NCBI GenBank assembly: GCA_022710715.1 | Contig: JAKLGJ010000002.1 | Span: 501,453-565,452, forward strand | Length of the DNA stretch: 64,000 nt | Reading direction: 5' to 3' | Origin: Candidatus Omnitrophota bacterium | GTDB taxonomy: Bacteria; Omnitrophota; Gorgyraeia; Gygaellales; Profunditerraquicolaceae | In this document: positions 26,822 through 60,296 of the stretch, in pieces | Layout of the letters: every line of letters begins with the position of its first letter | Numbering within the stretch: the first letter of the stretch is position 1 | Made by a program: the position numbers and the translations under genes | The notes under the pieces: generated by a model | What the model was told of the DNA's origin: nothing | Databases searched by the model: none | What the model saw: only the letters and a program-made list of their open reading frames with translations

Positions 26822-26850
26822 TTGACAATTTCTGCAGCCTATGCTATACT
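26822..26850 (+). promoter_or_regulatory. sigma70-type promoter TTGACA-17-TATACT
   Basis: ttgaca 26822-26827, 17-nt spacer, tatact 26845-26850; in an AT-rich gap upstream of giant gene A. Confidence 0.55.
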
Positions 26851-27025: not shown

Positions 27026-30000
27026 ATGAAGATGATGCGCAGAGTTATGGCAGTGGTGGTGGGATTTTGTTTACTCCTGGAGCAGACCGGATTCGCTCAA
27101 GTCGCTCCGCAATTCAATGTCCCGGCATACCTCAACGGTTATGTGGCTGCGGATAAATTCCGTCCGGTTCAATTGCGTTCGATCTCTCTGGGCCAGGATG
27201 CCCAGGATCTGAACCTCTATCTCGACGCCGGAGACGCCAGGAATATCTCTTCCCGTCAGGCCAAGGAATCCGCGCGCCAGCTTCTGGAATATTTCCGCGT
27301 CGGCCTCGCTTTGCCCAACCAGTCTTTCTGGGTGAATCTGCGCCCGGATGCGCAAGACAAGATCCTGGACATGTCGCTGGAAAGAACCGACATGGGAAAA
27401 ATTCTGCTGGAAGCCGATCTGCAACTTAAGAAAGATCTGGCTGCCTTCACTTCTCCGGATACCCGCGAGGGCAAGCAGTACTGGAACCGGCTTTACGCCA
27501 GAGCCGAGCAGATCTTCGGACCGGACAATATCACCATTCCTACGATTACCCGGCCCTGGATCGTTCCGGGCGAGATCATCCTGCGCCAGAGCCAGGAGAG
27601 CGCCTACATTTATAAGGCTACCCTGAAAGTGATGCTCGAGCAGGATTGGTTCGCGCAGCCGGATGCCGCGCTGGGCATCAGCGCCGCAGTCATGGCTGAC
27701 AAGCGGGTTCAGGAACTTAACGCTTATTCATCCGAATTGATCCGCACGCATATCCTTCCTAAATTAACCGCGGAAGTCAACTCTTCGCGCAAGTACGCCG
27801 CTTTGCGCCAGGTCTATTATTCGCTCATTCTGGCGCAATGGTACAAGCGGCAATTTCAGGGCAAAGACAACGCCTATGCGAGGCGCATCGACAGCCGCGA
27901 TCTGTCCGGCCTGGAATCGCGACACGCGTGGTCAAAAACCACCGCTTTTAATGCTTACAAGAAATCATTTTCCGAGGGTGAATATAAGAAAGAGGAAATG
28001 GTACGCAGCGGCAAAAATGTGATCGTGCACCGGTATTTCAGCGGCGGCGTGAGCGTGGTGAACACCATGGCCGCGCAGAACAGCGTGAGTAACCAGGTAT
28101 TCACCAGCAACAACGCGGCATTGACCGAACCGTTGATCGCTTATTCCGCCCAGACCGACGAGGTCACTCCCGCGCAGCAGAGCGAGGTCGCGGTCAAGGA
28201 TACTGAAACCCAGGAAGAACCGGCGGGCCGCCTGGAAAAAGGCTGGGTCATTGCCAACCATATCCTGGTTTCTTTCCACGTGGCGTTCATCGTTTCTCTG
28301 TTGAGCCTGCCTGTAGCCGAGATGTTCAGCAAATGGGATGTCCTGCAATACGTGTTTGCCAGCGCGGAAACTCCTTTGAGCGCGTTGTTGTGGTATATCG
28401 GCTGGCACAGCGGCATCGCCCTGCACGAAATGGGCCATTACCTCAAGGCGGTGAAGACGTCCGCTTTGAGAGCCGAACTGCTCCCGGCAGCAGAGGCAAA
28501 GATGCGCCAGGGTTTTCTGGGTAGAATGAAGTGGTACGCAGAGATGTTCGTGAAAATTCCCTGGGGTAAATTCGAAGGGGTGAAGAAAGTAGGCAGAGGC
28601 ATTGCCGCTAATTATTATCCGGATGCGCCATTCAACGCAGCAGTTGCCGCAGAAGGACCCCGTTTCAGCGGGAAAGTAGCCAAGCTTACCCTGCCTGCAG
28701 GCATAGGGTTACTGGCGGCTGGTCTCTTTGCCCAGACTGTGCCGGCTTTTGCCGGTATAGGCGATGCTCTGGTTTTCCTGGGCAGAATGTTTTTCGGTAT
28801 CGGCGCGATCTCTTTTCTCGATTACAAAATGGCTGATCCCGGTAAGCTTGCCGAGTTTGACGAGCGCGAGCGCAAAGCCGCGGAAAAAGCCAAGGCTGTT
28901 ACCGCAGAAACAGTGCAGGCCGAGCAAATCTCCTGGAAGGATCAGATGGGCGACGTTAAGAAGAAAATGCTCCGGCAGCGCATTCAGGAAGCGGAAACCC
29001 GCTGGGGCGTATCTATTCGCGCTCCCTGGGGTTGGCGCAACTCCGGTATGGGCGGACGCCATACCGAGAAAGAATACCCGCAGAGCAACATTTCCATGCA
29101 GGAAGCCATGTTCATTCCTTTAAGCGCTAAAACCTACGAAGACGCGCAGCGCATGGTCGTAGAGCTGCAAACCCGGTTGCATCAAATCATCAATAAAGTC
29201 GAAGGCGCCCGCGTTGAAGGTATCGGTCTGGAAGGCGGTCTGGCTACGTATATTGAAAAGGATCCCAGCGATCTGGTTCCTGAACAGCGCTTATGGCGCT
29301 TGATGGTGCAGGCAATCAAAGAGTCGGGTTTTAAACCCGGCGAGGATGTGGTTCTGGCATTCGACCCGGCGGCAAGCGAGTTGGAAATCGCCTATCGCGA
29401 AAAGTACGAACAGCCTGATGCGGTAGGTATGTATCTGTTCTGGCGCGACGCCAACCAGGTAGTGATGAGCCGCGATCAGTTGATGGATCTGTATGATTGG
29501 GCGATCGAGAACAATATTCCTTTGATCTCCGGCGAGGATTTATTCGCGGAGGACGATTATGAAGGATGGAAGCTGGCCATGGCCAAGTATGGCGATGTGA
29601 TGTTCATCATCGGAGACGATGTGGCTACTACTAATGCCCACACCGTAGAATTCCTCGCGGACGAAAAGCTGATAAATACCCTGTTGGTCAAAGCCAATCA
29701 GATCGGCTCATTAGCCGAGACATTGCTGGCTATGTTGACCGGCCTGGGCAAGGGGTTGGAAATGGTGGTTTCCCACCGTTCCAAGTCTCCCAATGACGAT
29801 ATGGAAGCGCAGGTAGCATTGTCGGTTAACGCCGTAGGGTTAAAAGCCGGCGGCGGCGCCAATACCGAGAGATTGGTCAAGTACGGCGCTATTATCAAGA
29901 TGATGAAAGAAGCCATCCTGGATGCGGCCATGAAAGACAGCAGGGGAGTGACCAACAAGGAGCTGGAGCAGCAGGTGACCGCGGTTATTGATCAGCTGCA

Positions 30001-31270
30001 GATCACCAGGATCGTCGCGTACGAGGAATCGACCAATGCGGGTATCCCGACCGCAGGTGCGACGGTGAGCTTCGGCATTCCCGGGAGCTTGAGGTACGAG
30101 AGTCTTTTCAAGATGTCGGGTTCCACTCCGCTGGGCACCAGCGCCGGCACCGGAGAAGCGATCCATCTGATCGATTCTAACTTTGCCCCGAATGAACTGA
30201 CCGCGCAGTATCCCGACCTGTTCGACAAAAGCGCCACCGGAACGTATTCGTTCAAAAAGTCGGTTGACGATAATCAGATTATCGCCAAAGACGATGCCGT
30301 CCTTACGGAGTTTTATAAGAGGGCGAACCGTTACAGCGGCAAAGGCGTATTGAACGCGGTTTCCAACGTGGAAAAGATACTGGCGGAGAAGTTTGTCGGC
30401 AAAAAGTTATCGGAGTTGGGCGGCATTGAGAATATAGATAAGGTTTTGCTGGAAGCGGAATTCGAATTAGGCGTGGCGCGCGGTTTGATCAGTCGCGATG
30501 CGCCGATGGATGAAAAGATCAAGTTCATGCAGCGCAAAGGTAATATCGGCATGAATGCGCTTCTTTCCACATCCCTGGCCTTGGGCCGCATGGTTACGGC
30601 AATGCAGGGTAAGGAATTGTGGCAGACTTTGCGCGAGACGATGGCGACGACCATCGCCCGCACTATCGCCGAAAGCGAAGGCGTCAGCGCGCAGGAGCTG
30701 GAGCAGAACTATACCTTCGAACAGCTGGTCGAAAAGTTGCAGAAGTTCGAACAGGCGCGCAAGGAGCGCAAAGACGAACGTCCGTTGTATGCGTATCTGG
30801 AAGCGGCGTTGCCGGTATACGGCGAGGCTGACGGCGGGTCGCAGGTGCAGGACGGCGGATTGAAGACCGATGCGCAGGAAGTCGTCGAGCAGCAGACCGT
30901 GGCGGTTGAGCAGCAGGCTGCTGCGGCGAATCAGGCTCCGGAAGAGCTCGGCGGCGTGGATCTGCGCGCTTTGCCGGTGTCGGTCAAGCCGGTCGATGCA
31001 TCGCGGGTCGTTCCGGTTAATTCCGCGCTGCTGAAAATGTCCCTCCAGGACCTGGATAAGACCTGGACGGATTTGCGCGGCAAAGTGGAAGGGCAAGCGG
31101 TCCCGTACCAGCAGCTCAAAGAATACGTGGCTGCCTGCAAGTCCCGCGCTGATGCCGCAAAGCAGCTGGCGCAGGTGCGCCGTTACATCGGCGAACTGCT
31201 CAAGCTCGAGGAAGAGAGGGCTATCGCATCCTCTTCCGAGATGCATGAGATTGTCGGTATTATCGGCTAA
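27026..31270 (+). CDS. giant secreted/membrane protein A: signal peptide + conserved N-domain + 4-TM region with HEMGH motif + circularly permuted enolase-like domain + Q/E/A-rich tail
   Basis: AAAGGAGAGG RBS; 1414 aa; enolase barrel motifs (AFDPAASE, IGDDVATTN, LLVKANQIGSL, VVSHRS, LVKYG) precede enolase N-domain motifs (ITRIVAYEESTNAGIPT.., PLGTSAGTGEAIHL, RYSGKGVLNAV). Confidence 0.85.
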   Translation: MKMMRRVMAVVVGFCLLLEQTGFAQVAPQFNVPAYLNGYVAADKFRPVQLRSISLGQDAQDLNLYLDAGDARNISSRQAKESARQLLEYFRVGLALPNQSFWVNLRPDAQDKILDMSLERTDMGKILLEADLQLKKDLAAFTSPDTREGKQYWNRLYARAEQIFGPDNITIPTITRPWIVPGEIILRQSQESAYIYKATLKVMLEQDWFAQPDAALGISAAVMADKRVQELNAYSSELIRTHILPKLTAEVNSSRKYAALRQVYYSLILAQWYKRQFQGKDNAYARRIDSRDLSGLESRHAWSKTTAFNAYKKSFSEGEYKKEEMVRSGKNVIVHRYFSGGVSVVNTMAAQNSVSNQVFTSNNAALTEPLIAYSAQTDEVTPAQQSEVAVKDTETQEEPAGRLEKGWVIANHILVSFHVAFIVSLLSLPVAEMFSKWDVLQYVFASAETPLSALLWYIGWHSGIALHEMGHYLKAVKTSALRAELLPAAEAKMRQGFLGRMKWYAEMFVKIPWGKFEGVKKVGRGIAANYYPDAPFNAAVAAEGPRFSGKVAKLTLPAGIGLLAAGLFAQTVPAFAGIGDALVFLGRMFFGIGAISFLDYKMADPGKLAEFDERERKAAEKAKAVTAETVQAEQISWKDQMGDVKKKMLRQRIQEAETRWGVSIRAPWGWRNSGMGGRHTEKEYPQSNISMQEAMFIPLSAKTYEDAQRMVVELQTRLHQIINKVEGARVEGIGLEGGLATYIEKDPSDLVPEQRLWRLMVQAIKESGFKPGEDVVLAFDPAASELEIAYREKYEQPDAVGMYLFWRDANQVVMSRDQLMDLYDWAIENNIPLISGEDLFAEDDYEGWKLAMAKYGDVMFIIGDDVATTNAHTVEFLADEKLINTLLVKANQIGSLAETLLAMLTGLGKGLEMVVSHRSKSPNDDMEAQVALSVNAVGLKAGGGANTERLVKYGAIIKMMKEAILDAAMKDSRGVTNKELEQQVTAVIDQLQITRIVAYEESTNAGIPTAGATVSFGIPGSLRYESLFKMSGSTPLGTSAGTGEAIHLIDSNFAPNELTAQYPDLFDKSATGTYSFKKSVDDNQIIAKDDAVLTEFYKRANRYSGKGVLNAVSNVEKILAEKFVGKKLSELGGIENIDKVLLEAEFELGVARGLISRDAPMDEKIKFMQRKGNIGMNALLSTSLALGRMVTAMQGKELWQTLRETMATTIARTIAESEGVSAQELEQNYTFEQLVEKLQKFEQARKERKDERPLYAYLEAALPVYGEADGGSQVQDGGLKTDAQEVVEQQTVAVEQQAAAANQAPEELGGVDLRALPVSVKPVDASRVVPVNSALLKMSLQDLDKTWTDLRGKVEGQAVPYQQLKEYVAACKSRADAAKQLAQVRRYIGELLKLEEERAIASSSEMHEIVGIIG

Positions 31271-31368
31271 ACGGCCGGTAGATCAATGATGTTCAAGGAA
31301 GCCACGGTTCTGGATTGAGCGATCAGTCGAGCACCGTGGCTTTCTGCTCTGTGGAGAGGCGTGTGATC

Positions 31369-34300
31369 ATGCATAGAGGCATCGGATCCATCCGAAAAAC
31401 AGTCTCCATTCTAACCAGCCTGGTTCTGCTGCTGCAGACGGCAGGCTTCGCTCAAGTTTTTTCTCCGTCCGCGGTCAATGCGGATGTTCCCGCATCACGC
31501 CTGTCCGGCTGCTGCCGGCCCATGCATCTGCGCTGGCTGGCAGTGGATCCGGATAACCGGTCATTCAACGTCATTCTGGACACCGGAGACGCAACCGGTA
31601 TTTCCCCCCGACGCCTGCGCGAAGAATCTCAAAAACTCATCGAATATTTCCTCATCGGTCTGGTCCTGCCCAACAGCTCGTTCTGGGTAAATCTACGCCC
31701 CGACGCGCCTTTGCGCGTTATTGATCCTTTGCTGGAGCGCACCGACGTCGGCAGGATACTGCTGGAAGCCGATGTGCGTTTGAAAAAAGATCTGGCCGCA
31801 TATACGTCTCCCGCCACCGCGCAAGGGCGGCGTTACTGGGATGCGTTGTATAAACGGGCTGCAGAGCTGTTTGGTCCGGCGCAGATAACCGTTTCCACCG
31901 CTTCCCGTCCCTGGATCGTGCCCGGCGAGATCATCATCGGCGAAGGCGAACAGGGAGCGTATGTGTATAAGGCGACTCTGGACGTGCGCTTGGAAGACGA
32001 TTGGATCGGCCGTTCGGATCCTGTGTTGAAACAGCTCAACGCGTACGGCGCGCAATTGCTCAAGCGGGAAATCCTGCCCGGGCTGATCAAAGAAGTGAAT
32101 ACCTCGGAGAAATACGCTGCTCTGCGCCAGGTGTACTATTCGCTGATCCTGGCGCAATGGTTCAAACTGCATCCGGCTCAGGCCGGCGCTTCCCTGTCCG
32201 CGATCGTCGACGCAGCAGATCCCGTCGGACTGGCTTCGAGCATTCCCTGGTCCAAGAATACATTTACTGCCGAATATCGCCGGTCCCTGCAGGCGGGCGA
32301 ATACAACCAGAAAGAATACGTGCCGACTTCCGCGGGCTTGAGTCTGCGTCAGTACGCCAGCGGAGGCGCGCTTTTCAACGGCAGCAGCCGGGTTCTTTCG
32401 GTGTCGCCGGGATTGGGCCGGGCAGTTCTGCATGCGCCGGCGCCGTACCGGCAGGCGCTCGAAGTTCCTTTTCCGCAGGCGGTGCGCGTTGTGCTTTCCC
32501 GTCGGTCAAACGTTGACACGCATGCGGATGAGCCGGATGGCGGTACCCAGGCGCAGGAAGAGATACGCATTATGGCATTGTACGGCGGTTTGCAGCGGTT
32601 GACGAATTTTGTGCTGAAAGAATCCCGCCCGTCGGCAGCGCGATTGCTGCCGGATATCGCCAGGTCGGGGCACGCGCAGATGGTCGCCGCGGTAGTGCCC
32701 GAACTGATGCGCGCCGCGGCTTCCAGTAACCGGCCCGATATCCGGGCGGCTGCCAATGAATGCCTTGCCGCGGTCCGGTCCCCGGCTCAGACGGCTGCAC
32801 TCGAGCCGGTTGCGCCGGAGTCGTCTCTGCAGCCGGCTGCCGTTTCCGCGGTAGACCGGGAAAACCTCGCCGGTTTTCTCCACGCGATGGGCGGCCGGGA
32901 TATCAACGCAGCCATTGCCGCATGTGCGGCCATGCGCGCATTGTTCAAAGAGAAGCCGGGTTTGTGGGCAGACCGGCAGGTCGTTGAAGCTGTCGGGCCT
33001 GTTCTGAAAAGCAGTTTTCCGAGAGCGCGATTGGCGCTGATGGAAGCCGTTGAACAAAGTATCAGCGCTCCGGTCAGCGATGAGCTTCTTTTCCTGGTTT
33101 TAAAAGGAATGAATGATCGCGACGACCAGGTGAGCGAAAGAGCGCTTTTCGCGTTCGCGCGCATACTCGCCGCGGAGCCGCGCCCGGGTCATACCGGTGA
33201 GGCGCTTGCCCGGATCATGGATGAGCCGGAATCTTTCGCTATTGCCGGGTTGGTATTCGACCTTATCGCCAGAAAGGGCGCCGGCGAGCTTGAACCGCTC
33301 TGGCAGTTGCACGCCGGAAACCGGGCGCACTTGCGCCGGGCGCTGGAGCAGAATCTCGCCGATGCCGCTTTTCCGGGATTGTATACGCTAAACGACGTTT
33401 CCTGGCGCGGGCTGGCCGAACAACTGATTGAATACAACCGTCTTACCGCCGATGCGGACGCGCCGCTGCGTTCGGTGATCGTCAAGATGCTCCTGGCCCG
33501 CGAAGGCGCGGTGTCTTTCGGCCGGATGAAATGGCTGGTGGCTGAATCGCTTTCGTATTTCCACGTCAATCTCGCGCATGCGCTGGAAAAAACGCGTTCG
33601 GTCGCCCTGCGCCGGCAGCTGATCAAGGCTTCCGGCGTGAGTACCGCGGACAGCATCGAAGTGTTGCGCACCCGGGCCATCCGGTTCGCGGCCATCGCGG
33701 ACAACGATACGAGTTTCGATTCTTCCAGAGGCGTGGCCGGACGTATTCGCAGCGATATCCATCTGCGTCTTTCTCCCCAGGACTTGCGCGCGGTCAGAGC
33801 CTACCGCACATTCCTCGACGGAGACGCTTCCGAACTGACCGCTCTGGGGTATACGATCAGTGAATCCGACCGCGTCCCGCCGGAACGCAAGGCGCGGGTG
33901 GCCGCGGCCGCCGAAGATCTGCTGGACGCGCTGGAGGAGATATTCGGCGAAGAGAGCGGGAAAGGGGTGAGGGCGTATTTCGCTCTGGCGAAAAAGATGT
34001 TCCGGGACCATCCGGTTCTCGCGAATGAGATCCAGGAAATTCTTGATTTTTCCGGAAAGAAAGATCTGGCGTATCTGGAGCGGATCAATGCGGCCAGGAG
34101 CCTTCTGGCGGAGGTCGGCCGAACCATGCGCTCGACGGAACTGATGATGAGTATCGGGCTGGATAACGCGCTGGAGAACCTGTATTACGGGGGCGTTGCC
34201 GCTTTCGAACCGTCGGTGGATTACGCCGATGATCTGCAGACGCTGAAGGTTGTGCGCAGCCTGATGGAAGCGGTGCGGTTGAACGGTTACTGTCGGGAAG

Positions 34301-36342
34301 AGATCGCGATGATTGTTTTGCAGGTCGAAGCGGTGCTGGCGAGAGGGATACGCAATCAGGAAGACCGGCTGGAGATCTATGCGCTGTACCGCCGGCTGGA
34401 GCGGATGATCAAAGGTATTTCCCAGGAGACGATCAACGATTATCAGGAGATCGCGCAGCGCCTGGGCGCTGCCGCGGGCAAAGCCGATGCTCCCTGGGTC
34501 GGCGAATTCTCCGCTCAACTGATGCGCCGGGACGTGGTGTACTGGCTGGCCAGCGTGACGGAGAAAGCGATGCAGTCGGCCATGTCTTCCGCGGGGATCA
34601 GCGGCTGGCAGGTGATCCAGGAAGGCGTCGCGCGGGGAAGGATCAAAGTGATCGTCGATAATGAGGATTTCGCCGGCCTCAAGGATGATGAAATAGCGGT
34701 CGCCGCGCAGCTTCCCGACGACAGCCGGTTTCTTATTCATGCCAGAGGGATCATTACCACCGGGGTGGAATGTTTGCTGTCTCATCCCGCAGTCCGGGCG
34801 CGGCAGCAGAAAACGGTTTTCGTCTCCGCTCCATCTCTGGATGAGGCAAAAAAATACGCCGGGCAATGGGTAGAGCTGTCAGCGCAGGGAGAGCAGGTGA
34901 TCATCCGGCCTCAAGCTGAAGCCGAGGCGCAGCGGGAAGCTTCGATCGTGCCGAAGAAAAAGCCGGCCGGGGCGATTGCACCGGTGGAGCCTGACCGCGC
35001 CTGGAGTGCGGCAGTGGTTCTCCCGTCGGATTATACGCCGCAGCGGGTAGGTAATAAAGCGTATACCTTGAGCCGGATACCGGATAATCTTATCGCCGGG
35101 CAGAGAACGGCCCGTCATTTCAGTTTGAGCTTCGCTTTTTTCGATGCGGTGTTGGCGCTTGAGATTAATCGCGCCCGCAAACAGGAGTTGCAGGTTTTGC
35201 AGCAACGGGTGATCCAGGCAGCCCGGGATCAGGATGTGCGTGAGGATTTACGGCGTATGCGGGCTTTGGTGGAAGAGCTCGAGCTGCCGCAGCAAACGCT
35301 GGGAGAAATCGTCGCCACCGCGACGGAGTTGTTTGGCCGGGAAACGCCGCTTTTCCTGCGCTCCAGCACCAATGCCGAAGACCTGGCGGATTATTCGGGC
35401 GCAGGGGTGTATGATTCTTTCGGCGCGGTAACGCTTTCTCCGCCGGACATCGCCCGCCATGTCAAAAAGGTATGGGCTTCAGTCTGGAATGAGAAAGCGT
35501 TTTTCGACCGCCAGGCGAATGCTATCGATCACGCCGCGGTGCGGCCGGCAGTCTTGATCCAGGAGATGCTGAATCCGGAGTATTCCTTTGTCATCCATAC
35601 CCGGTCGCCGGTCAACGGCAATGACGGGGCGGTGCTCATCGAAGCGGTGCAGGGATTCGGGGAAACGCTGGTCAGCGGCCTGGACGCTTACGCCGGGCAG
35701 GCGTATCGTTTCAGCGTGGATAAGTCTACCGGCGAGCTCAAGTTGATCTCGTTCGCGAATAAGAGCCGCAAGATCGTTGTGCGCGCCGGCCGTTTCAACG
35801 ATGCCGCCGCGGATTATCACGATGACTGGCTGGTGACGCCTGAAGGACGGCAACTTCTGCAGCGCATAGGCATGGCCGCGATCAAACTCGCGGACGCCGC
35901 AGGCGCCGCCCAGGATATCGAGGGCGTGATCGTCAATGACCGGGACGGGCGCACAGTCGGATTCGTCCAGACGCGCGCGCAGGTTATGCTGAATGCGGAC
36001 GGCGGCAATCTTCTGGGCGGAGTGGATCTGCGCCTGTTATCCGCCGACAATGCCGCCGCGGCCGGCGCGCAGATCCCGCGGGCGCGCGGGATATTCCTGG
36101 AGCGGTCCGCCGCCGAATGCGACGGGATCTGTCGCGCTCTGCTTGCCGGATTGGAACGTGACCCGTCGTCGCTGGAAGGATTGCGGGAATACGTGGTGGA
36201 GATGGGCGTCCGGGCGGACGCAGAGCAGCGGTTGAAAGACGTGTCCATCTGGTTGATGAACCGGCTGCGCATGGAAGAGGCGGCTGTGATGAAAACTCCC
36301 GCGCCGCTGCGGGAAGCGCTTGTCTGCCTCGGCGCGAGGTAA
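31369..36342 (+). CDS. giant secreted protein B (paralog of A): signal peptide + conserved N-domain + HEAT/ARM-like helical repeats + C-terminal PEP-utilizing-enzyme ATP-grasp (PPDK_N-like) domain
   Basis: GGAGAGG RBS then ATG 31369 (ORF opens 31315); N-domain clearly homologous to A (e.g. SFWVNLRPDA, RPWIVPGEII, KYAALRQVYYSLILAQW identical); C-terminus has LRSSTNAEDLADYSGAG and VLIQEMLNPEYSFVIHTRSPVNGNDGAVLIEAVQGFGETLVSG. Confidence 0.85.
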   Translation: MHRGIGSIRKTVSILTSLVLLLQTAGFAQVFSPSAVNADVPASRLSGCCRPMHLRWLAVDPDNRSFNVILDTGDATGISPRRLREESQKLIEYFLIGLVLPNSSFWVNLRPDAPLRVIDPLLERTDVGRILLEADVRLKKDLAAYTSPATAQGRRYWDALYKRAAELFGPAQITVSTASRPWIVPGEIIIGEGEQGAYVYKATLDVRLEDDWIGRSDPVLKQLNAYGAQLLKREILPGLIKEVNTSEKYAALRQVYYSLILAQWFKLHPAQAGASLSAIVDAADPVGLASSIPWSKNTFTAEYRRSLQAGEYNQKEYVPTSAGLSLRQYASGGALFNGSSRVLSVSPGLGRAVLHAPAPYRQALEVPFPQAVRVVLSRRSNVDTHADEPDGGTQAQEEIRIMALYGGLQRLTNFVLKESRPSAARLLPDIARSGHAQMVAAVVPELMRAAASSNRPDIRAAANECLAAVRSPAQTAALEPVAPESSLQPAAVSAVDRENLAGFLHAMGGRDINAAIAACAAMRALFKEKPGLWADRQVVEAVGPVLKSSFPRARLALMEAVEQSISAPVSDELLFLVLKGMNDRDDQVSERALFAFARILAAEPRPGHTGEALARIMDEPESFAIAGLVFDLIARKGAGELEPLWQLHAGNRAHLRRALEQNLADAAFPGLYTLNDVSWRGLAEQLIEYNRLTADADAPLRSVIVKMLLAREGAVSFGRMKWLVAESLSYFHVNLAHALEKTRSVALRRQLIKASGVSTADSIEVLRTRAIRFAAIADNDTSFDSSRGVAGRIRSDIHLRLSPQDLRAVRAYRTFLDGDASELTALGYTISESDRVPPERKARVAAAAEDLLDALEEIFGEESGKGVRAYFALAKKMFRDHPVLANEIQEILDFSGKKDLAYLERINAARSLLAEVGRTMRSTELMMSIGLDNALENLYYGGVAAFEPSVDYADDLQTLKVVRSLMEAVRLNGYCREEIAMIVLQVEAVLARGIRNQEDRLEIYALYRRLERMIKGISQETINDYQEIAQRLGAAAGKADAPWVGEFSAQLMRRDVVYWLASVTEKAMQSAMSSAGISGWQVIQEGVARGRIKVIVDNEDFAGLKDDEIAVAAQLPDDSRFLIHARGIITTGVECLLSHPAVRARQQKTVFVSAPSLDEAKKYAGQWVELSAQGEQVIIRPQAEAEAQREASIVPKKKPAGAIAPVEPDRAWSAAVVLPSDYTPQRVGNKAYTLSRIPDNLIAGQRTARHFSLSFAFFDAVLALEINRARKQELQVLQQRVIQAARDQDVREDLRRMRALVEELELPQQTLGEIVATATELFGRETPLFLRSSTNAEDLADYSGAGVYDSFGAVTLSPPDIARHVKKVWASVWNEKAFFDRQANAIDHAAVRPAVLIQEMLNPEYSFVIHTRSPVNGNDGAVLIEAVQGFGETLVSGLDAYAGQAYRFSVDKSTGELKLISFANKSRKIVVRAGRFNDAAADYHDDWLVTPEGRQLLQRIGMAAIKLADAAGAAQDIEGVIVNDRDGRTVGFVQTRAQVMLNADGGNLLGGVDLRLLSADNAAAAGAQIPRARGIFLERSAAECDGICRALLAGLERDPSSLEGLREYVVEMGVRADAEQRLKDVSIWLMNRLRMEEAAVMKTPAPLREALVCLGAR

Positions 36343-36386: not shown

Positions 36387-36440
36387 AATATATACCTGCG
36401 GTAAGGAGCTTATCTGAAGCCAAGGGCGCGTAGTATGATG

Positions 36441-36467
36441 ACCTATCCTTATCGGGTAGGTTTTTTT
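36441..36467 (+). promoter_or_regulatory. terminator-like hairpin + T7 in leader, followed by two further hairpins (36487-36512, 36505-36525)
   Basis: acctatcc-ttatc-gggtaggt then ttttttt; cttgcgca..tgcgcaag and ttgccc..gggcaa stems. Confidence 0.4.
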
Positions 36468-36821: not shown

Positions 36822-38297
36822 ATGATGGAGACGATCAAGAGAGAAGAAGTGGAGCGTTATCTGGAGCGGGGCAGGGATTTTATCGACGATGCCCTGATCG
36901 AACGCCTGCTGGAAGAGAATAAACAGCCCGATGCGCGGGCTGTGCGGGAGATCATTGCCCGGGCCCTGGAGATCAAGACGCTGGAGCCTGCGCAAACCGC
37001 GGCGTTATTGCAGGTGCAGGATGATGCGCTCTGGGAAGAGATTTTCCAGGCCGCCGCGAAGATCAAGACCAAAGTGTATGATAACCGGGTGGTGACGTTT
37101 GCGCCTTTGTACGCCGCGAATAAGTGCGTGAATAATTGTTCTTACTGCGGGTTCAGGCGGGAGAATCCGGCGATCCAGCGCCGGGTGCTGGATTTCGACG
37201 CGATCCGGGAAGAAACGCGCGTGCTTGCCGGCAAGCTTGGCCACAAACGCCTGATTTTCGTGTGCGGCGAACATCCGGAGTCCGGGGCGGATTATATCGC
37301 CGAGAGCATGCGCACCATTTACAGCGTGAAAGAAAAAGTGCGCAACGGACGCGGAGAGATCCGCAGGGTCAATGTCAATGCCGCGCCGATGAGCGTGGGC
37401 GATCTGATCAAGATCAAAGACGCCGGCATCGGCACCTTTCAGGTTTTTCAGGAAACCTATCATCACGCCACCTATGCCCGGGTGCATCCCGCCGGAACGG
37501 TCAAATCGGATTTCGGCTGGCGGCTGTACGCGTTGCACCGGGCGATGGAAGCCGGTATCGACGACGTGGCGATCGGCGCTCTGTTCGGTTTGTACGACTG
37601 GAAATTCGAGGTTATGGGCATGCTCTTCCACGCCCGGGACCTGGAAAAGCGTTTCGGCATCGGTCCGCACACGGTTTCCATGCCCCGGATCGAGCCGGCA
37701 GCCAACACGCCGTTTTGCGACCACGCGCCCCACCGGGTTAGCGACCGCGATTTCAAACGCCTGATCGCGGTGCTGCGTCTGTCTATTCCGTATGCCGGGA
37801 TGATCATTACCTGCCGGGAGCGCCCGGGGTTTATTCGGGATGTTATCCCGATGTGCACGCAGCGGGACGCTTCCAGCCGCATCGGCGTGGGCGCGTATAC
37901 TGGCCAGCAGCAAGAGCAGCAGCAGGATATCCAGCAATTCATCCTGGGAGATACGCGTTCCCTGGATGAAGTTATCCGCGAGCTGGCCTCTCTGGGGTAT
38001 ATCACTTCATTCTGCACCGCAGGGTACCGCTGCGGCCGCACCGGCAAGAACATCATGACCCTGCTGCGCACCGGGAAAGAAGGCTGTTTCTGCAAATTGA
38101 ACGCCATCCTGACCTTCCAGGAATGGCTGGAAGATTTTGCCAGCCGGGAAACCAGGGAGATCGGCGAGCGGATCATCGCTCAAGAGATCGCGCAGGTTAC
38201 CGAGCGGGTGCCCGCGTACTTTACGCCGGAGCTGCTGGAGAAAATGCTGGAATTTCACCGCCGGATCAAATCCGGAGAACGGGATCTGTGTTTTTAG
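36822..38297 (+). CDS. hydG: [FeFe]-hydrogenase maturase HydG (radical SAM tyrosine lyase)
   Basis: 491 aa; CVNNCSYC radical SAM motif; ThiH/HydG-like length and C-terminal Cys cluster. Confidence 0.8.
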   Translation: MMETIKREEVERYLERGRDFIDDALIERLLEENKQPDARAVREIIARALEIKTLEPAQTAALLQVQDDALWEEIFQAAAKIKTKVYDNRVVTFAPLYAANKCVNNCSYCGFRRENPAIQRRVLDFDAIREETRVLAGKLGHKRLIFVCGEHPESGADYIAESMRTIYSVKEKVRNGRGEIRRVNVNAAPMSVGDLIKIKDAGIGTFQVFQETYHHATYARVHPAGTVKSDFGWRLYALHRAMEAGIDDVAIGALFGLYDWKFEVMGMLFHARDLEKRFGIGPHTVSMPRIEPAANTPFCDHAPHRVSDRDFKRLIAVLRLSIPYAGMIITCRERPGFIRDVIPMCTQRDASSRIGVGAYTGQQQEQQQDIQQFILGDTRSLDEVIRELASLGYITSFCTAGYRCGRTGKNIMTLLRTGKEGCFCKLNAILTFQEWLEDFASRETREIGERIIAQEIAQVTERVPAYFTPELLEKMLEFHRRIKSGERDLCF

Positions 38298-38312
38298 GAA
38301 GGATTGGTATTC

Positions 38313-39572
38313 ATGGAAAAAGCGCCTAAATCGCTGCGTTTGCATATCGGGATATTCGGGCGGACCAATGTGGGCAAGTCCAGTTTTTTGAACCTGGTGG
38401 CCGGACAGGATGTGGCGATCGTGTCCGAAGTGCCCGGCACGACAACCGACGTGGTCGAGAAAACCATGGAGTTGCTTCCTCTGGGGCCGGTGGTATTCCT
38501 GGATACGGCCGGCATGGACGATACCTCCGAACTGGGATCTTTGCGGCTGAAGAAGACCCGCAAAATTTTCGACCGGTCGGATGTGGTCCTGCTGCTGCTG
38601 GAACCGGATATCTGGACGGAATATGAGGATGGTATTATTGAGGAAGCCCGGTCCAGAGCGATCCCGGTGATCCTGGTGGTGAACAAGATCGATCAGAAGC
38701 AACCTTCTTCGGCATACCTGGAACGGCTCGAAAAGGTAACCGAGCGAATAGTCCTGTGTTCCAGCCTTGACGGTAAAAAACGCGATACCTATCTTAATCC
38801 TTTGAAGCAGAAGCTGATCGAAACCTGTCCGGAAGAGTTTTTGAACCCGCCGCCATTGATCGCGGATTTGATCCCGGCCGGCGGGCTGGCAGTGCTCATC
38901 GTTCCCATCGATCTGGAAGCGCCCAAGGGAAGATTGATCCTGCCGCAGGTGCAGACTTTGCGCGATTGCCTGGATAATGGCAGCATGGCGCTGGTAGTCA
39001 AAGAGAGTGAGTATGCCGTCGCGTTGCGCCAGCTTACAAATCCTCCGGATCTGGTAGTCTGCGATTCGCAGGTGGTCTTGAAGATGGTCGAGGATACGCC
39101 GGAAACTTTGAGGTGCACTACTTTTTCCATGCTCTTCGCCCGCAATAAAGGCGATCTGGTCGAGGCGGCGCGGGGCGCGGCAATGCTGGAATCGTTGCAG
39201 CCGGGCGATAAAGTGCTGATCGCCGAAGCCTGTAGCCATCATCCTATCCAGGATGATATCGGCCGGGTGAAGATCCCCCGCTGGCTGCGGCAGTTCGTAG
39301 GCGGCGACCTGCAGATCGATGTTTCTTCCGGAAGAGATTATCCGGAAGACCTGGCGCAGTATAAGCTGATCATCCATTGCGGCGGGTGCATGCTTACCCG
39401 GCGGGAGATGCTCTTCCGGATCGAAAAAGCCCAAGAAGCAGGCGTGCCGATCACCAACTACGGCGTGGCCATATCCGTTCTGCAGGGCGTGGCGCAGCGC
39501 ACCCTGGCGCCTTTTCCCGCGGCCTGGGAAGCTTTCCGCGCGGCGCAGGGGGAGAGGGCGAAAAAAGCTTGA
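38313..39572 (+). CDS. hydF: [FeFe]-hydrogenase maturation GTPase HydF
   Basis: AGGAAGGA RBS; G1 GRTNVGKSS; C-terminal CSHH...HCGGC FeS motif. Confidence 0.85.
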   Translation: MEKAPKSLRLHIGIFGRTNVGKSSFLNLVAGQDVAIVSEVPGTTTDVVEKTMELLPLGPVVFLDTAGMDDTSELGSLRLKKTRKIFDRSDVVLLLLEPDIWTEYEDGIIEEARSRAIPVILVVNKIDQKQPSSAYLERLEKVTERIVLCSSLDGKKRDTYLNPLKQKLIETCPEEFLNPPPLIADLIPAGGLAVLIVPIDLEAPKGRLILPQVQTLRDCLDNGSMALVVKESEYAVALRQLTNPPDLVVCDSQVVLKMVEDTPETLRCTTFSMLFARNKGDLVEAARGAAMLESLQPGDKVLIAEACSHHPIQDDIGRVKIPRWLRQFVGGDLQIDVSSGRDYPEDLAQYKLIIHCGGCMLTRREMLFRIEKAQEAGVPITNYGVAISVLQGVAQRTLAPFPAAWEAFRAAQGERAKKA

Positions 39573-39693
39573 TTTTTTCGGAAAATGTGATATATTTTAA
39601 ATCTCTACTGCAAAAAGTGAAGGACTCCTTCCTGATTGCTTAGTCTCAAATTCATCCCTTTACAGTGAACGGAAAGACGAGAGAAGGTCGGCA

Positions 39694-40164
39694 ATGGAAC
39701 AGAAGATTTCTATTGAAATCAAAAATTTGGTAGATAAGTGGAAGAGCAAAGAGGGCAACCTGATCATGATCCTCCACGAGATCCAGAATCATCACGGGTA
39801 TGTCCCGCGCGAGCTTTCTCTGGAGCTTTCCCAGATGCTCGACGTTCCTCTGGCGCGCATCTACGAAGTGATCACCTTCTATAATTTCTTCAAACTCACT
39901 CCCCCGGGCAAACACAAGATCGCCGTTTGCATGGGCACGGCCTGTTATCTCAAGGGCGGCCAGGACCTGATCAACGAAGTCAAGAACATTCTGCATATCG
40001 AACCCGGACAGACCACCAAAGACGGACAATACTATCTGGATATGGTGCGTTGCCTGGGATGTTGCGGTCTGGCGCCGGTAATGATGATAGACGAGAAAGT
40101 ATACGGAAAAGTCAAGAAGAGCGAAATAATGGATATTCTCTCCAAGCACGGGAGCACAGATTAA
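39694..40164 (+). CDS. NuoE/HndA-like thioredoxin-fold [2Fe-2S] subunit
   Basis: CMGTACYLKG...CLGCCGLAP. Confidence 0.85.
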   Translation: MEQKISIEIKNLVDKWKSKEGNLIMILHEIQNHHGYVPRELSLELSQMLDVPLARIYEVITFYNFFKLTPPGKHKIAVCMGTACYLKGGQDLINEVKNILHIEPGQTTKDGQYYLDMVRCLGCCGLAPVMMIDEKVYGKVKKSEIMDILSKHGSTD

Positions 40165-40167
40165 ACC

Positions 40168-40518
40168 ATGGATAAACTGACCCCAGAGGCAATCGACAGG
40201 ATATTCAAACAGAACCGGCAGCAGTCCGCCAACTGGATCAAGGTCGGGATGAGCACCTGCGGCATTGCCGCCGGCGCGGATGAAGTGTATGCCACCCTGG
40301 TCGAAGAAATAAAGAAACGCAATATACAGGTTACGGTCAAGAAATGCGGTTGCCTGGGTATGTGCCACGCCGAACCCCTGGTGGAAGTCTGCGTGGACGG
40401 CATGCCCACCGTGATCTACGGCCGGGTGAACAAGGAAATCGCGGTAAAGATACTGGATAAACACGTTAATTCCAAAGCATTGTTAAACGATTATATTTTC
40501 GATCTCGAGACCAAATAA
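40168..40518 (+). CDS. HndB-like small [2Fe-2S] ferredoxin-domain subunit
   Basis: STCGIAAGA...CGCLGMCHAEP. Confidence 0.7.
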   Translation: MDKLTPEAIDRIFKQNRQQSANWIKVGMSTCGIAAGADEVYATLVEEIKKRNIQVTVKKCGCLGMCHAEPLVEVCVDGMPTVIYGRVNKEIAVKILDKHVNSKALLNDYIFDLETK

Positions 40519-40520
40519 TC

Positions 40521-42260
40521 ATGTTCAAGAAAACCATTCTTTTAAAAGATACCAGTTTCAGCCCGGAAGATAAGACCAGGGATGTATTCACCCGCTGCCT
40601 GGATTATTTGAGGGAAAAACAGCTGGAACAGGATATCCAGGTGGTCAGGGTTGCGGACAGCGGGGTGTACGGTCAGGGGCTGGTAATGAAAGTCCTGCCG
40701 GATGCGACGCTATATGTCAATTTGAAAGATGAGGATGTCACCAGGGTCATCGATGCCGCGGCGCAGAATAAGACGATCGAAGGGTTGGCGCTGAAGAAAG
40801 CGCCCAAGCAGATCCGCATCGTGTTGCGTAATTGCGGAAAGATCGACCCGGAATCCCTCGAAGAATACATCGCTACCGGCGGGTATGTCGGTTTGAAGAA
40901 AGCTTTGCTGGAGCTCACCCCGGATAAAGTGATCGAGGAGATGAAGAAAGCGGGTTTGCGCGGCCGCGGCGGCGCTGGATACCCCACCTGGATGAAATGG
41001 AAATTTGCCCGCCAGGTCGTTGCAGACCAGAAATTCGTCATCTGCAATGCCGATGAAGGCGACCCGGGCGCGTATATGGACAGAAGCGTGCTGGAAGGCG
41101 ATCCGCACTCGGTGATCGAAGGTTTGATCATTGCCGCGTACGCGGTGGGAGCGTCCAAAGGCTATTTCTATATCCGCGCCGAATATCCTCTGGCGGTGGA
41201 GAGGATTCAGAAAGCTATCGACCAGGCCAATGCAGCGGGCTTGCTGGGCAAGAACATTTTAGGCAGCGCGTTCAGCCTCGATCTGGAGATCCGTCTGGGC
41301 GCCGGGGCGTTTGTCTGCGGCGAAGAGACGGCATTGATCGCTTCGATCGAAGGCCGGCGCGGCACGCCGCGTCCCCGTCCGCCGTATCCTTCGGTAAAAG
41401 GTCTCTGGGATAAGCCCACGGTGATCAATAACGTGGAGACTTTGTCCAATGTTTCGTTTATCCTTTTGAAGGGCAGCGAGCAGTTCGCGAGCATCGGGAC
41501 GGAAAAATCCAAAGGCACCAAGGTTTTTGCCGTGACCGGGAAAGTCAAGAATTCGGGGCTGGTGGAAGTGCCCATGGGCATTACCTTGAGAGAGATAGTC
41601 TATGATATCGGCGGCGGCACGATTTCCGGCAAAGCGGTCAAAGCCGTGCAGACCGGCGGCCCTTCCGGCGGAGTGATCCCGGTAGACGCGCTGGATACCC
41701 AGGTGGATTACGAAAACCTGCAGAAACTGGGATCGATCATGGGGTCCGGCGGCATGATCGTCATGGATGAAGAGGATTGCATGGTGGATATCGCCAAATT
41801 CTACCTGGGTTTTTGCGTGGACGAATCCTGCGGTAAATGCGCGCCCTGCCGTATCGGCGGCTACCAGATGCTGGAAGTGTTGAAGCGCGTGGCCAACGGT
41901 CAGGCCAAGCTCGAAGATATGACCGTGCTGCGGCGGATCTCCCAGGCGATGCAGAAAGCGTCTCTCTGCGGATTGGGTCAGACCGCGGCCAACCCGGTGC
42001 TTTCCACGATGAAATATTTCGAAAGCGAATACAAACAGCATATCGAGAACAAGAAATGCCCCGCGGGCAAATGCTCGGCGCTGTCCAACTACGCGATCAT
42101 TCAGGAAAAGTGCAAACGCTGCTCGCTCTGCCAGAAGAATTGCCCGGTGGAAGCTATCCCGGGGAGCAGGGAAGACGGATTTACCATTGTCCAGGAAAAA
42201 TGTATAAAATGCGGACGCTGTCTTGAAGTCTGTAAATTCAAGGCCGTATCCAAAACATAA
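40521..42260 (+). CDS. NuoF/HndC-like flavoprotein subunit (FMN/NAD(P)H binding, FeS clusters)
   Basis: GLRGRGGAGYPT motif; C-terminal ferredoxin CxxCxxCxxxCP motifs. Confidence 0.9.
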   Translation: MFKKTILLKDTSFSPEDKTRDVFTRCLDYLREKQLEQDIQVVRVADSGVYGQGLVMKVLPDATLYVNLKDEDVTRVIDAAAQNKTIEGLALKKAPKQIRIVLRNCGKIDPESLEEYIATGGYVGLKKALLELTPDKVIEEMKKAGLRGRGGAGYPTWMKWKFARQVVADQKFVICNADEGDPGAYMDRSVLEGDPHSVIEGLIIAAYAVGASKGYFYIRAEYPLAVERIQKAIDQANAAGLLGKNILGSAFSLDLEIRLGAGAFVCGEETALIASIEGRRGTPRPRPPYPSVKGLWDKPTVINNVETLSNVSFILLKGSEQFASIGTEKSKGTKVFAVTGKVKNSGLVEVPMGITLREIVYDIGGGTISGKAVKAVQTGGPSGGVIPVDALDTQVDYENLQKLGSIMGSGGMIVMDEEDCMVDIAKFYLGFCVDESCGKCAPCRIGGYQMLEVLKRVANGQAKLEDMTVLRRISQAMQKASLCGLGQTAANPVLSTMKYFESEYKQHIENKKCPAGKCSALSNYAIIQEKCKRCSLCQKNCPVEAIPGSREDGFTIVQEKCIKCGRCLEVCKFKAVSKT

Positions 42261-42263
42261 CCT

Positions 42264-52963: not shown

Positions 52964-52964
52964 T

Positions 52965-54074: not shown

Positions 54075-54077
54075 CGA

Positions 54078-59020: not shown

Positions 59021-59026
59021 TTCATT

Positions 59027-60295: not shown

Positions 60296-60296
60296 T

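What the first reader, a model, noticed from the sequence alone, without database searches (positions are those of the whole stretch)
35040..36342. PEP-utilizing-enzyme ATP-grasp (PPDK_N-like) domain at the C-terminus of giant protein B, without a phosphohistidine or PEP-utilizer domain
The C-terminal roughly 430 aa carry the PEP synthase/PPDK N-terminal nucleotide-binding motifs LRSSTNAEDLADYSGAGVYDSF, AVLIQEMLNPEYSFVIHTRSPVNGNDGAVLIEAVQGFGETLVSG and DIEGVIVNDRDGRTVGFVQTRAQ. The central His domain and the PEP/pyruvate-binding TIM barrel are absent. Together with the enolase-like domain in paralog A this gives two PEP-related domain fusions on one shared scaffold.
Basis: partly seen in the sequence, partly recalled or inferred. 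Interest (0 to 1): 0.6.

Follow-up and report, generated by a model that had tools for sequence, protein, structure and literature searches.

The report
Starch-kinase-like dikinase core in Omnitrophota protein

Summary
Protein B (window 31369-36342, 1657 aa) matches PF01326 PPDK_N at E=2.2e-31, and all three quoted motifs are present. There is no PEP/pyruvate TIM barrel.

The claim of 'no phosphohistidine domain' is wrong. His1139 sits in the conserved 'LSHxxxRAR' motif. Residues 796-1068 are remotely homologous to the GWD central helical domain (hhalign 98%, E=1.5e-13).

B therefore carries a complete central-His-ATP core in GWD/PWD order. It lacks starch-binding modules, and two proposed acceptor-site glutamates are replaced. 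I infer a swivelling-histidine water dikinase that phosphorylates an unidentified hydroxyl acceptor, possibly a polysaccharide.

The 'shared scaffold' of A and B is not PEP-themed. It consists of the N-terminal domain (at least 7,776 clusters at 50% identity, no solved structural relative) and the C-terminal tail of a huge Omnitrophota family. That family carries diverse cargo, including HD, methyltransferase, GH94, GPI, DnaJ and guanylate kinase domains.

B has a signal-peptide-like N-terminus and no further transmembrane segment. This conflicts with its need for ATP and remains unresolved.

Verdict: new variant of a known kind, moderate interest.

The parts
31369..36342 (+). Protein B ORF (1657 aa from ATG 31369; the mechanical ORF starts at TTG 31315)
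   Evidence: Shine-Dalgarno-like GGAGAGG 9-10 nt before ATG 31369
31369..31455 (+). Signal-peptide-like N-terminus (aa 1-29: basic n-region, 12-15 residue hydrophobic core, 'GFA|QV'). It is the only hydrophobic segment in B
   Evidence: Kyte-Doolittle scan; 'GFAQ' is conserved across the family. No SignalP-type tool was available, so this is inferred
31456..32403 (+). Omnitrophota-specific N-terminal domain ('N-cap', aa ~30-345), 47% identical to paralog A
   Evidence: BLASTP; 232 or more Omnitrophota hits with no Pfam family; 7,776 clusters at 50% identity, always N-terminal; AF2 pLDDT 82.6 with no PDB fold match below E=0.28
32566..33753 (+). Linker and HEAT-like region (aa ~400-795). From aa ~625 it is conserved with the dikinase-bearing relatives
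   Evidence: Only sub-threshold HEAT_EZ/HEAT_2 matches in B; strong HEAT matches in relative L001; tblastn alignments begin at B aa 625-738
33754..34593 (+). Central helical domain (aa 796-1075), a remote homologue of the GWD central domain. It contains R1053, equivalent to StGWD1 R904
   Evidence: hhalign prob 98%, E=1.5e-13, 258 columns; reversed and shuffled controls score 14-17 against 101; all-helical in AF2 at pLDDT >90. A profile built from the B clade alone does not hit 9HA9 significantly (E=1.2)
34606..34926 (+). Phosphohistidine (swivel) domain, aa 1080-1186; catalytic His1139 = codon CAT 34783-34785 in 'VECLLSHPAVRARQ'
   Evidence: PF22973 E=5.9e-7, 29.5 bits against cut-off 27, and PF00391 E=0.011; His aligned with the rifampin phosphotransferase catalytic His region; SH nearly invariant; beta-rich domain at model residues 312-412
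35038..36003 (+).
   Evidence: PF01326 E=2.2e-31; Foldseek hit to the rifampin phosphotransferase ATP domain; invariant K1230, S1371, D1516, E1518, Q1534
36001..36339 (+). C-terminal tail ('C-cap', aa 1545-1657; 'GGVDLR...LREYV...RMEE...LG') shared with paralog A and most family members
   Evidence: 26% identity to the A tail; the family consensus ends with the same tail; 103 of 141 family members carry it at the extreme C-terminus; low AF2 confidence
27026..31270 (+). Paralog A (1414 aa): the same N-cap and C-cap, a TM/HEMGH region and a permuted enolase as cargo
36440..36462 (+). Terminator-like hairpin followed by a T-run after B. With the promoter-like site at 26822-26850, this suggests an A-B transcription unit
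   Evidence: consensus matches only

Best explanation
The C-terminal ~750 residues of protein B (aa ~796-1545) form a complete catalytic core of the glucan/phosphoglucan water dikinase (GWD/PWD) type. The core consists of a central helical acceptor-side domain, a short loop, a phosphohistidine swivel domain (His1139), a linker and a PPDK_N ATP-grasp domain.

Inferred mechanism, by analogy with StGWD1, PEP synthase and rifampin phosphotransferase: ATP binds the ATP-grasp domain, and His1139 attacks the beta-phosphate, assisted by the acidic residue D1118. The gamma-phosphate goes to water, giving AMP + Pi. The phospho-His domain then swivels back to the central helical domain, where R1053 faces it, and transfers the phosphate to a hydroxyl group of an acceptor bound there.

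The acceptor is not pyruvate, because there is no PEP/pyruvate TIM barrel. It is most plausibly a polysaccharide or another polymer, but it is not established. B lacks CBM45/CBM20 modules and replaces the two glutamates proposed as the acceptor-side proton donor and base.

This core is the 'cargo' of a lineage-specific Omnitrophota chassis: a signal-peptide-like N-terminus, a ~320-aa N-cap, HEAT-like helices, the cargo, and a ~110-aa C-cap.

What is shown: domain identity and order, conserved catalytic residues, clade placement and family architecture. What is inferred: activity, acceptor and cellular location.
For: - Pfam: PF01326 plus PF22973, both above their cut-offs. The same pair occurs in the closest relatives P0001-P0003 and in the Omnitrophota ORFs of L001 and L002.
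- Next-closest relatives carry Ig_N_GWD1 or CBM20 domains and are annotated as glucan or phosphoglucan water dikinases by their source.
- The profile of these relatives hits the StGWD1 central-domain crystal structure 9HA9 at E=2.6e-104.
- The B-clade helical region aligns to that central region at hhalign prob 98%, E=1.5e-13, with clean controls.
- In a neighbour-joining tree, B plus P0001-4 is sister to the PWD-like plus GWD-like clades, apart from a ~650-aa bacterial family and from PEP synthases.
- The AF2 model (pLDDT 86, pTM 0.81) shows a helical domain, a 5-residue loop, a beta-rich His domain, a linker and an ATP-grasp domain. This matches the StGWD1 description, including the very short central-His loop (PMC13553574).
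- Residue mapping: H992=H1139, E971=D1118, V989/L990=L1136/L1137, R904=R1053. The ATP-grasp invariants K1230, S1371, D1516, E1518 and Q1534 are kept.
- The architecture recurs in other Omnitrophota genomes (L002, L005, L008).
Against: - No carbohydrate-binding module was detected.
- Identity to GWD/PWD-like proteins is only 22-31%.
- A profile from the B clade alone does not reach significance against 9HA9 by HMMER (E=1.2).
- StGWD1 E900/E901 are A1049/Q1050 in B (S/A and N/Q across the clade), with a clade-specific invariant D1055. The acceptor chemistry may therefore differ.
- There are no glycogen or starch genes in the 64-kb window.
- B has a signal-peptide-like N-terminus and no later TM segment, as do L002 and L008. 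An exported ATP-dependent enzyme is hard to reconcile with this mechanism.
Confidence: 0.62

Rival explanations
1. One reading: an orphan PPDK_N ATP-grasp domain with no phosphohistidine partner, working as a plain nucleotide-binding or ATP-grasp ligase-like module on a scaffold themed around PEP.
For: PF01326 is the only strong Pfam hit. There is no PF02896 match. Paralog A carries an enolase.
Against: PF22973 matches above its cut-off at aa 1080-1186. His1139 sits in the conserved SHxxxRAR motif across 70 or more relatives. AF2 shows a folded beta-rich domain there at pLDDT ~90. The scaffold family carries unrelated cargoes.
Confidence: 0.03
2. A PEP synthase or pyruvate phosphate dikinase module that interconverts pyruvate and PEP. 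This is how PPDK_N domains in Omnitrophota giant proteins were read in bioRxiv 10.1101/2023.11.21.568195.
For: The best NCBIfam names are 'phosphoenolpyruvate synthase'.
Against: There is no PEP/pyruvate-binding TIM barrel (PF02896) anywhere in B or in the relatives L001, L002 and L008. NCBIfam scores are ~110 against cut-offs of 598-999 and cover only the ATP-grasp part. The domain order is reversed. PEP synthases fall as the outgroup in the tree.
Confidence: 0.03
3. A small-molecule dikinase that uses the same swivelling-His chemistry, like rifampin phosphotransferase, phenolic phosphate synthetase, or PigC/RedH. The acceptor would be a metabolite or xenobiotic bound by the helical domain.
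For: The best solved-structure matches are rifampin phosphotransferase and HpeI. The superfamily has a wide acceptor range (PMC13553574). B has no CBM and altered acceptor-side residues.
Against: Domain order differs from rifampin phosphotransferase, which runs ATP-grasp, substrate domain, His. The NF041857 rifamycin phosphotransferase model scores 109 against a cut-off of 999. The acceptor-side helical domain is homologous to that of GWD, not to the rifampin-binding domain. B clusters with the GWD/PWD clades.
Confidence: 0.2
4. A catalytically inactive, structural or binding remnant carried by a rapidly diversifying surface-protein family.
For: The predicted extracytoplasmic location has no obvious ATP supply. 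B has a modest PF22973 score. E900/E901 equivalents are lost. In L008 the motif after the His has degenerated to 'ISHLALWVKGK'.
Against: The catalytic His, the acidic helper residue and all ATP/Mg-binding invariants are retained across the clade at only 28-41% overall identity. That pattern indicates purifying selection on catalysis.
Confidence: 0.1

Closest known systems
Alpha-glucan water dikinase GWD1 and phosphoglucan water dikinase PWD/GWD3 of plants and algae (EC 2.7.9.4 / 2.7.9.5), and their uncharacterised bacterial homologues
   Same: Both have the order central helical domain, short loop, phosphohistidine domain (PF22973), ATP-grasp (PF01326). Both have the catalytic His in 'LSHxxxRAR', the acidic helper residue at -21 and the Arg facing the His (R904/R1053). 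Like PWD-type proteins, B has the 'RSSxNAEDL..GAGLYDS' segment before 'VWASxWN' (PMC13553574).
   Different: B has no CBM45, CBM20 or Ig_N_GWD1 domain. Identity is 22-31%. E900/E901 are replaced. B has no redox Cys pair. It is embedded in a signal-peptide-bearing Omnitrophota N-cap/HEAT/C-cap protein. Its acceptor is unknown.
Rifampin phosphotransferase (Listeria RPH, PDB 5HV1/5FBS) and related phenol dikinases
   Same: This is the closest solved structure for the ATP-grasp domain (Foldseek E=3e-15, rmsd ~3.2 Å over ~335 columns). The His-domain motif is alignable.
   Different: RPH runs ATP-grasp, rifampin-binding domain, His domain. B runs helical domain, His domain, ATP-grasp. There is no rifampin-binding domain, and the NCBIfam equivalog score is far below its cut-off.
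PEP synthase / pyruvate phosphate dikinase
   Same: Homologous ATP-grasp and swivelling His domains, and the same two-step phosphotransfer logic.
   Different: B has no PEP/pyruvate TIM barrel (PF02896), and the domain order is reversed.
'Archaeovorin' and other long multi-enzyme proteins of Omnitrophota (bioRxiv 10.1101/2023.11.21.568195; 10.64898/2026.06.07.730766)
   Same: Same phylum. Both combine a signal peptide, HEAT repeats and 'cytoplasmic-type' enzyme domains. PPDK_N is listed among the 20 most frequent Archaeovorin domains.
   Different: B is only 1,657 aa. The papers read the PPDK_N domains as pyruvate/PEP enzymes and, in the passages I read, do not describe the GWD-type His domain, the N-cap or the C-cap.

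Membership tests
PPDK_N / PEP-utilising-enzyme ATP-grasp nucleotide-binding domain (PF01326) | Significant match to the family HMM above the gathering score | tested here: met
   E=2.2e-31, 109.8 bits against 27
PPDK_N / PEP-utilising-enzyme ATP-grasp nucleotide-binding domain (PF01326) | ATP-grasp fold with conserved nucleotide/Mg-binding residues | tested here: met
   AF2 pLDDT >90 in this domain. Foldseek TM 0.85 to the isolated rifampin phosphotransferase ATP domain. K1230, S1371, D1516, E1518 and Q1534 are invariant in 72 sequences.
Glucan / phosphoglucan water dikinase (GWD/PWD) | Phosphohistidine domain (PF22973) with the catalytic His, placed N-terminal to the ATP-binding domain | tested here: met
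   PF22973 at 29.5 bits against 27, aa 1080-1186; H1139 aligned with the conserved His
Glucan / phosphoglucan water dikinase (GWD/PWD) | Central all-helical domain directly preceding the His domain | tested here: met
   hhalign 98%, E=1.5e-13 with clean controls; helical in AF2 with a 5-residue loop. Caveat: HMMER of a B-clade-only profile against 9HA9 gives E=1.2.
Glucan / phosphoglucan water dikinase (GWD/PWD) | N-terminal starch-binding modules (CBM45 x2 in GWD, CBM20 in PWD) | tested here: not met
   No CBM or Ig_N_GWD1 hit at E<=0.1. The N-terminus is instead the Omnitrophota N-cap plus a HEAT-like region.
Glucan / phosphoglucan water dikinase (GWD/PWD) | Conserved charged residues facing the His on the central domain (StGWD1 E900, E901, R904) | tested here: inconclusive
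   The Arg is kept (R1053). The two Glu are A1049/Q1050. The clade has its own invariant D1055 (PMC13553574).
Glucan / phosphoglucan water dikinase (GWD/PWD) | ATP + glucan + H2O gives AMP + phosphoglucan + Pi | not testable with these tools
   Needs a biochemical assay
PEP synthase / PPDK | C-terminal PEP/pyruvate-binding TIM barrel (PF02896) and the order ATP-grasp, His, barrel | tested here: not met
   No PF02896 hit. NCBIfam scores 87-116 against cut-offs of 598-976.
Rifamycin-inactivating phosphotransferase | Full-length match to NF041857, with a rifampin-binding domain between the ATP-grasp and a C-terminal His domain | tested here: not met
   109 bits against a cut-off of 999, ATP-grasp region only; the domain order differs
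Omnitrophota N-cap/C-cap protein family (not described in Pfam or in the papers I read) | Signal-peptide-like start plus a ~320-aa conserved N-terminal domain, and a ~110-aa 'GG(I/V)D(F/L)R...KEY...R(L/M)EE' C-terminal tail | tested here: met

The most novel reading that the evidence does not exclude
The N-cap/C-cap architecture may be a previously undescribed export, tethering or delivery chassis of Omnitrophota. It comprises a signal peptide, a conserved N-terminal domain with no solved structural relative, and a conserved C-terminal tail, and it spans at least 7,776 clusters at 50% identity. On this reading it presents cytoplasm-type enzymes outside the cell or inside a host or prey cell. 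The cargoes include a GWD-like dikinase, a permuted enolase, GPI, guanylate kinase, DnaJ and a GH94 phosphorylase. B would then be an ATP-dependent polymer-phosphorylating effector that acts on a partner cell's storage or envelope polysaccharide.
Probability: 0.2. Interest if true: 0.8.

Novelty: new variant of a known kind. Interest (0 to 1): 0.45.

Why it matters
The finding matters for three reasons.

1. It corrects a domain call that is easy to repeat. PPDK_N hits in Omnitrophota long proteins have been read as pyruvate/PEP enzymes. At least this clade is a GWD/PWD-type dikinase with its own phosphohistidine domain and no pyruvate site. That points to phosphorylation of a polymer or another hydroxyl acceptor rather than to central carbon metabolism.

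2. Only plant and algal GWD/PWD enzymes have been studied. A compact bacterial clade without CBMs and with altered acceptor-side residues could be a tractable model for how the central domain selects its acceptor.

3. The surrounding chassis is the larger open question. It is a very large Omnitrophota-specific family with a confidently folded N-terminal domain that has no solved relative. It carries ATP-dependent 'cytoplasmic' enzymes behind a signal-peptide-like sequence. This bears directly on whether these ultra-small, host-dependent bacteria export metabolic enzymes.

Tried and rejected
- A profile from the B clade alone (A6) did not hit the StGWD1 central-domain crystal sequence significantly (E=1.2). 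Homology rests on the profile-profile comparison with controls.
- The word-indexed search with the C-tail profile found only 9 short fragments. The tail's ubiquity became clear only from the family alignment and BLAST.
- The GTDB genome scan did not contain the source genome; the best match was 41% identical.
- I looked for glycogen or starch genes in the window as a hint to the acceptor and found none.
- I looked for an enolase-type paralog next to the dikinase protein in L001-L008 and found none, so the A-B pairing is not conserved.
- I checked whether a TM segment separates the N-cap from the dikinase in B, L002 and L008. None does, so the topology problem stands.
- I considered and rejected three readings: an orphan ATP-grasp domain, a PEP synthase/PPDK, and a rifampin phosphotransferase (see rival explanations and membership test).
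Full report
**Observation**

The window encodes two long tandem ORFs on the + strand. Protein A spans 27026-31270 (1414 aa). Protein B spans 31315/31369-36342. B most likely starts at ATG 31369, which is preceded by GGAGAGG, giving 1657 aa.

Pfam reports PF01326 PPDK_N at E=2.2e-31, 109.8 bits against a cut-off of 27, over aa 1277-1542.

NCBIfam models for PEP synthase and rifamycin phosphotransferase match only their ATP-grasp portions. Scores are about 110 bits against cut-offs of 598-999. In the PDB the best sequence match is Listeria rifampin phosphotransferase (E=4.7e-27). There is no PEP/pyruvate TIM barrel match (PF02896) at E<=0.1.

The same Pfam scan reports PF22973, the phosphohistidine-like domain of alpha-glucan water dikinase. 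It covers aa 1080-1186 at 29.5 bits against a cut-off of 27 (E=5.9e-7). A weak PF00391 match overlaps it.

The motif 'TGVECLLSHPAVRARQQ' aligns with the catalytic-His segment of rifampin phosphotransferase. It also aligns with 'LSHxxxRAR' in every relative that covers the region. The Ser-His pair is nearly invariant in alignments of 27 and 72 sequences. His1139 is codon CAT at 34783-34785.

**Relatives**

A search with aa 1040-1657 found the closest proteins at 38-41% identity. These are metagenomic fragments, mostly labelled Omnitrophica, and P0001-P0003 carry PF22973 + PF00391 + PF01326. Next came a protein that its source names phosphoglucan water dikinase. After that came about 20 bacterial proteins with Ig_N_GWD1 or CBM20 plus PF22973 plus PF01326, several of them named glucan water dikinase by their source.

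A profile of these sequences hits the recently solved central domain of potato GWD1 (9HA9/9QVI) at E about 1e-104. They are therefore true GWD homologues.

In a neighbour-joining tree of the His plus ATP-grasp region, B groups with P0001-P0004. This clade is sister to the PWD-like plus GWD-like clades. It is separate from a large ~650-aa bacterial family that also places the His domain before the ATP-grasp domain. PEP synthases form the outgroup. Like PWD-type proteins, B has 'RSSTNAEDL..GAGVYDS' before 'VWASVWN'. In GWD1-type sequences that segment lies after 'GLGETL'.

**The helical domain**

The region upstream of the His domain aligns to the GWD central region; for example 'SPQDLRAVRAYRTFL' aligns with 'TPDDIVICEAYLAFL'. 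A profile-profile comparison set the B-clade helical region against the central region of the bacterial GWD-like proteins. It gives probability 98%, E=1.5e-13 over 258 columns, covering B aa 796-1068. Reversed and column-shuffled controls score 14-17 against 101. A profile from the B clade alone does not reach significance against 9HA9 with HMMER (E=1.2). The homology is therefore remote.

**Structure**

AlphaFold2 on aa 770-1657 with 72 sequences gave pLDDT 86 and pTM 0.81. The model shows:
- an all-helical domain (model residues 1-306);
- a 5-residue loop;
- a beta-rich domain (312-412);
- a linker;
- an ATP-grasp domain (455-768);
- a low-confidence helical tail.

This matches the published description of StGWD1: a central domain of 20 helices, a 4-residue loop, the His domain, a linker and the ATP-binding domain. 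In that enzyme the His domain pivots between the ATP site and the central groove (PMC13553574).

**Residue mapping**

The mapping is by alignment:

| StGWD1 | B | Note |
|---|---|---|
| H992 | H1139 | catalytic His |
| E971 | D1118 | acidic helper residue |
| V989/L990 | L1136/L1137 | hydrophobic contact with the central domain |
| R904 | R1053 | faces the His |
| E900/E901 | A1049/Q1050 | S/A and N/Q across the clade |

The clade also has its own invariant D1055. The ATP-grasp invariants K1230, S1371, D1516, E1518 and Q1534 are retained. The autophosphorylation machinery therefore looks intact, while the acceptor side has diverged.

**Mechanism**

My best explanation is a swivelling-histidine water dikinase. 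It would use ATP plus an acceptor hydroxyl plus water to give AMP, a phosphorylated acceptor and Pi. The acceptor would bind on the central helical domain.

The acceptor is not pyruvate. A polysaccharide is the most economical guess given the clade placement. B has no CBM, and the window holds no glycogen genes. The wider superfamily also phosphorylates small molecules such as rifampin and phenols.

My confidence in the general mechanism is about 0.6. Confidence in a polysaccharide acceptor is lower.

**The scaffold**

A and B share aa 8-333 at 47% identity and a ~110-aa C-terminal tail at 26% identity.

The N-terminal domain has no Pfam family. The word-indexed search gives more than 230 hits with E<=0.001, and those that carry an organism name are nearly all labelled Omnitrophota or Omnitrophica. 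In the exhaustive HMMER search it matches 7,776 cluster representatives (6,499 at E<=1e-30). The match is always at the N-terminus, in proteins of 410 to 7,391 aa.

Its AF2 model is confident (pLDDT 82.6, core above 90). It has no PDB match below E=0.28.

A 32-member alignment ends in 'GGIDFRxLP...RIKEY...RLEEE...LVxLES', which is the tail of A and B. By BLAST, 103 of 141 top members carry it at the extreme C-terminus.

Cargo in those 32 members is heterogeneous. It includes HD, methyltransferase, GH94, GPI, Metallophos, FHA, guanylate kinase, DnaJ and TPR domains, plus one canonical PPDK_N + PEP-utilizers protein. The 'PEP theme' is therefore a coincidence of two neighbouring paralogs.

Proteins combining the N-cap with a B-type dikinase core occur in other Omnitrophota assemblies: L002 (2012 aa), L005 and L008 (1809 aa, with the same tail). 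A 4256-aa HEAT-rich protein (L001) also carries the core.

**Topology problem**

B has a single hydrophobic segment at aa 12-32. It has a basic n-region and a 'GFA|QV' site, and no later TM segment. The same holds for L002 and L008. If this segment is a Sec signal peptide, the ATP-dependent core is exported.

Published surveys also predict signal peptides on most long Omnitrophota multi-enzyme proteins, and they note the same paradox for glycolytic domains. I could not run a signal-peptide predictor, so the question stays open.

A type II secretion / type IV pilus-like cluster lies 15-25 kb downstream.

**Literature and novelty**

PPDK_N is listed among the 20 most frequent domains of Omnitrophota 'Archaeovorins' and was interpreted there as a pyruvate/PEP enzyme. 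In the passages I read, I found no description of the GWD-type His domain, of this clade, or of the N-cap/C-cap family.

I rate the finding a new variant of a known kind. It is a GWD/PWD-type core without CBMs, with a diverged acceptor side, in a lineage-specific chassis.

Interest is moderate at 0.45. The more surprising object is the chassis family, which lies mostly outside the finding's coordinates.

Noticed in passing
window 27026-31270 (protein A), especially aa 686-962 and ~1040-1143: The enolase of paralog A appears circularly permuted. The TIM-barrel domain comes first, with 'GDDVATTN', 'LVKANQIGSLAE', 'SHRSKSPNDD' and 'LKAGGGANTERLVKYG' retained. The N-domain elements follow it ('GSTPLGTSAGTGEAIHL', and 'NRYSGKGVLNAVSNVEKILAEKF' matching Enolase_N). 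A TM region with an HEMGH metalloprotease-like motif lies upstream.
   Followed up: partly
window 31456-32403 and 27110-28060; 7,776 clusters elsewhere: The N-terminal domain shared by A and B defines a very large Omnitrophota-specific family. The domain is always N-terminal, in proteins of 410-7,391 aa. It has a confident AF2 fold and no significant PDB match.
   Followed up: partly
window 36001-36339 and 30923-31267; P0003, P0004, L002 ORF 5699-11737: There are two kinds of C-terminal tail, and both start with 'GG(I/V)D(L/F)'. The A/B/L008 type continues '...KEY...R(L/M)EE...LG'. A second type runs 'GGIDLxP..NLQT....PVIINIQP'. Neither is in Pfam.
   Followed up: partly
window 51170-61142: A type II secretion / type IV pilus-like cluster: PilM (51170), PilO (52965), secretin (54078), GspE/PilB ATPase (57176), GspF/PilC (59027) and an MshEN protein (60297). 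It lies downstream of A and B. Similar clusters are reported next to Omnitrophota giant genes.
   Followed up: no
window 36822-44018: An [FeFe]-hydrogenase set lies directly after B. It comprises a radical-SAM/BATS maturase (HydG/HydE-like), HydF, a NuoF-like flavoprotein and the hydrogenase large subunit. This indicates an anaerobic, fermentative organism.
   Followed up: no
window 26822-26850, 31303-31340, 36440-36462: A strong promoter-like site (TTGACA-17-TATACT with TG) lies upstream of A. An inverted repeat CCACGGT...ACCGTGG sits in the 98-nt A-B gap. A terminator-like hairpin follows B. Together these suggest an A-B operon, possibly with an internal attenuator.
   Followed up: no
P0027-P0076 (Acidobacteriota, Myxococcota and others): A widespread ~650-aa bacterial family also places a His domain ('PLSHVxxRA') before the PPDK_N ATP-grasp domain, but Pfam annotates only PF01326. 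Sources label these proteins 'PEP/pyruvate-binding' or 'rifampicin phosphotransferase'.
   Followed up: no
alignment A1, columns ~1040-1260: GWD1-type bacterial proteins carry the 'RSDSNAEDL..GAGLYDS' segment after 'GLGETL'. PWD-type proteins, the B clade and PEP synthases carry it before 'VWASxWN'. This is an apparent segment permutation within the ATP-grasp domain of the GWD1 lineage.
   Followed up: no
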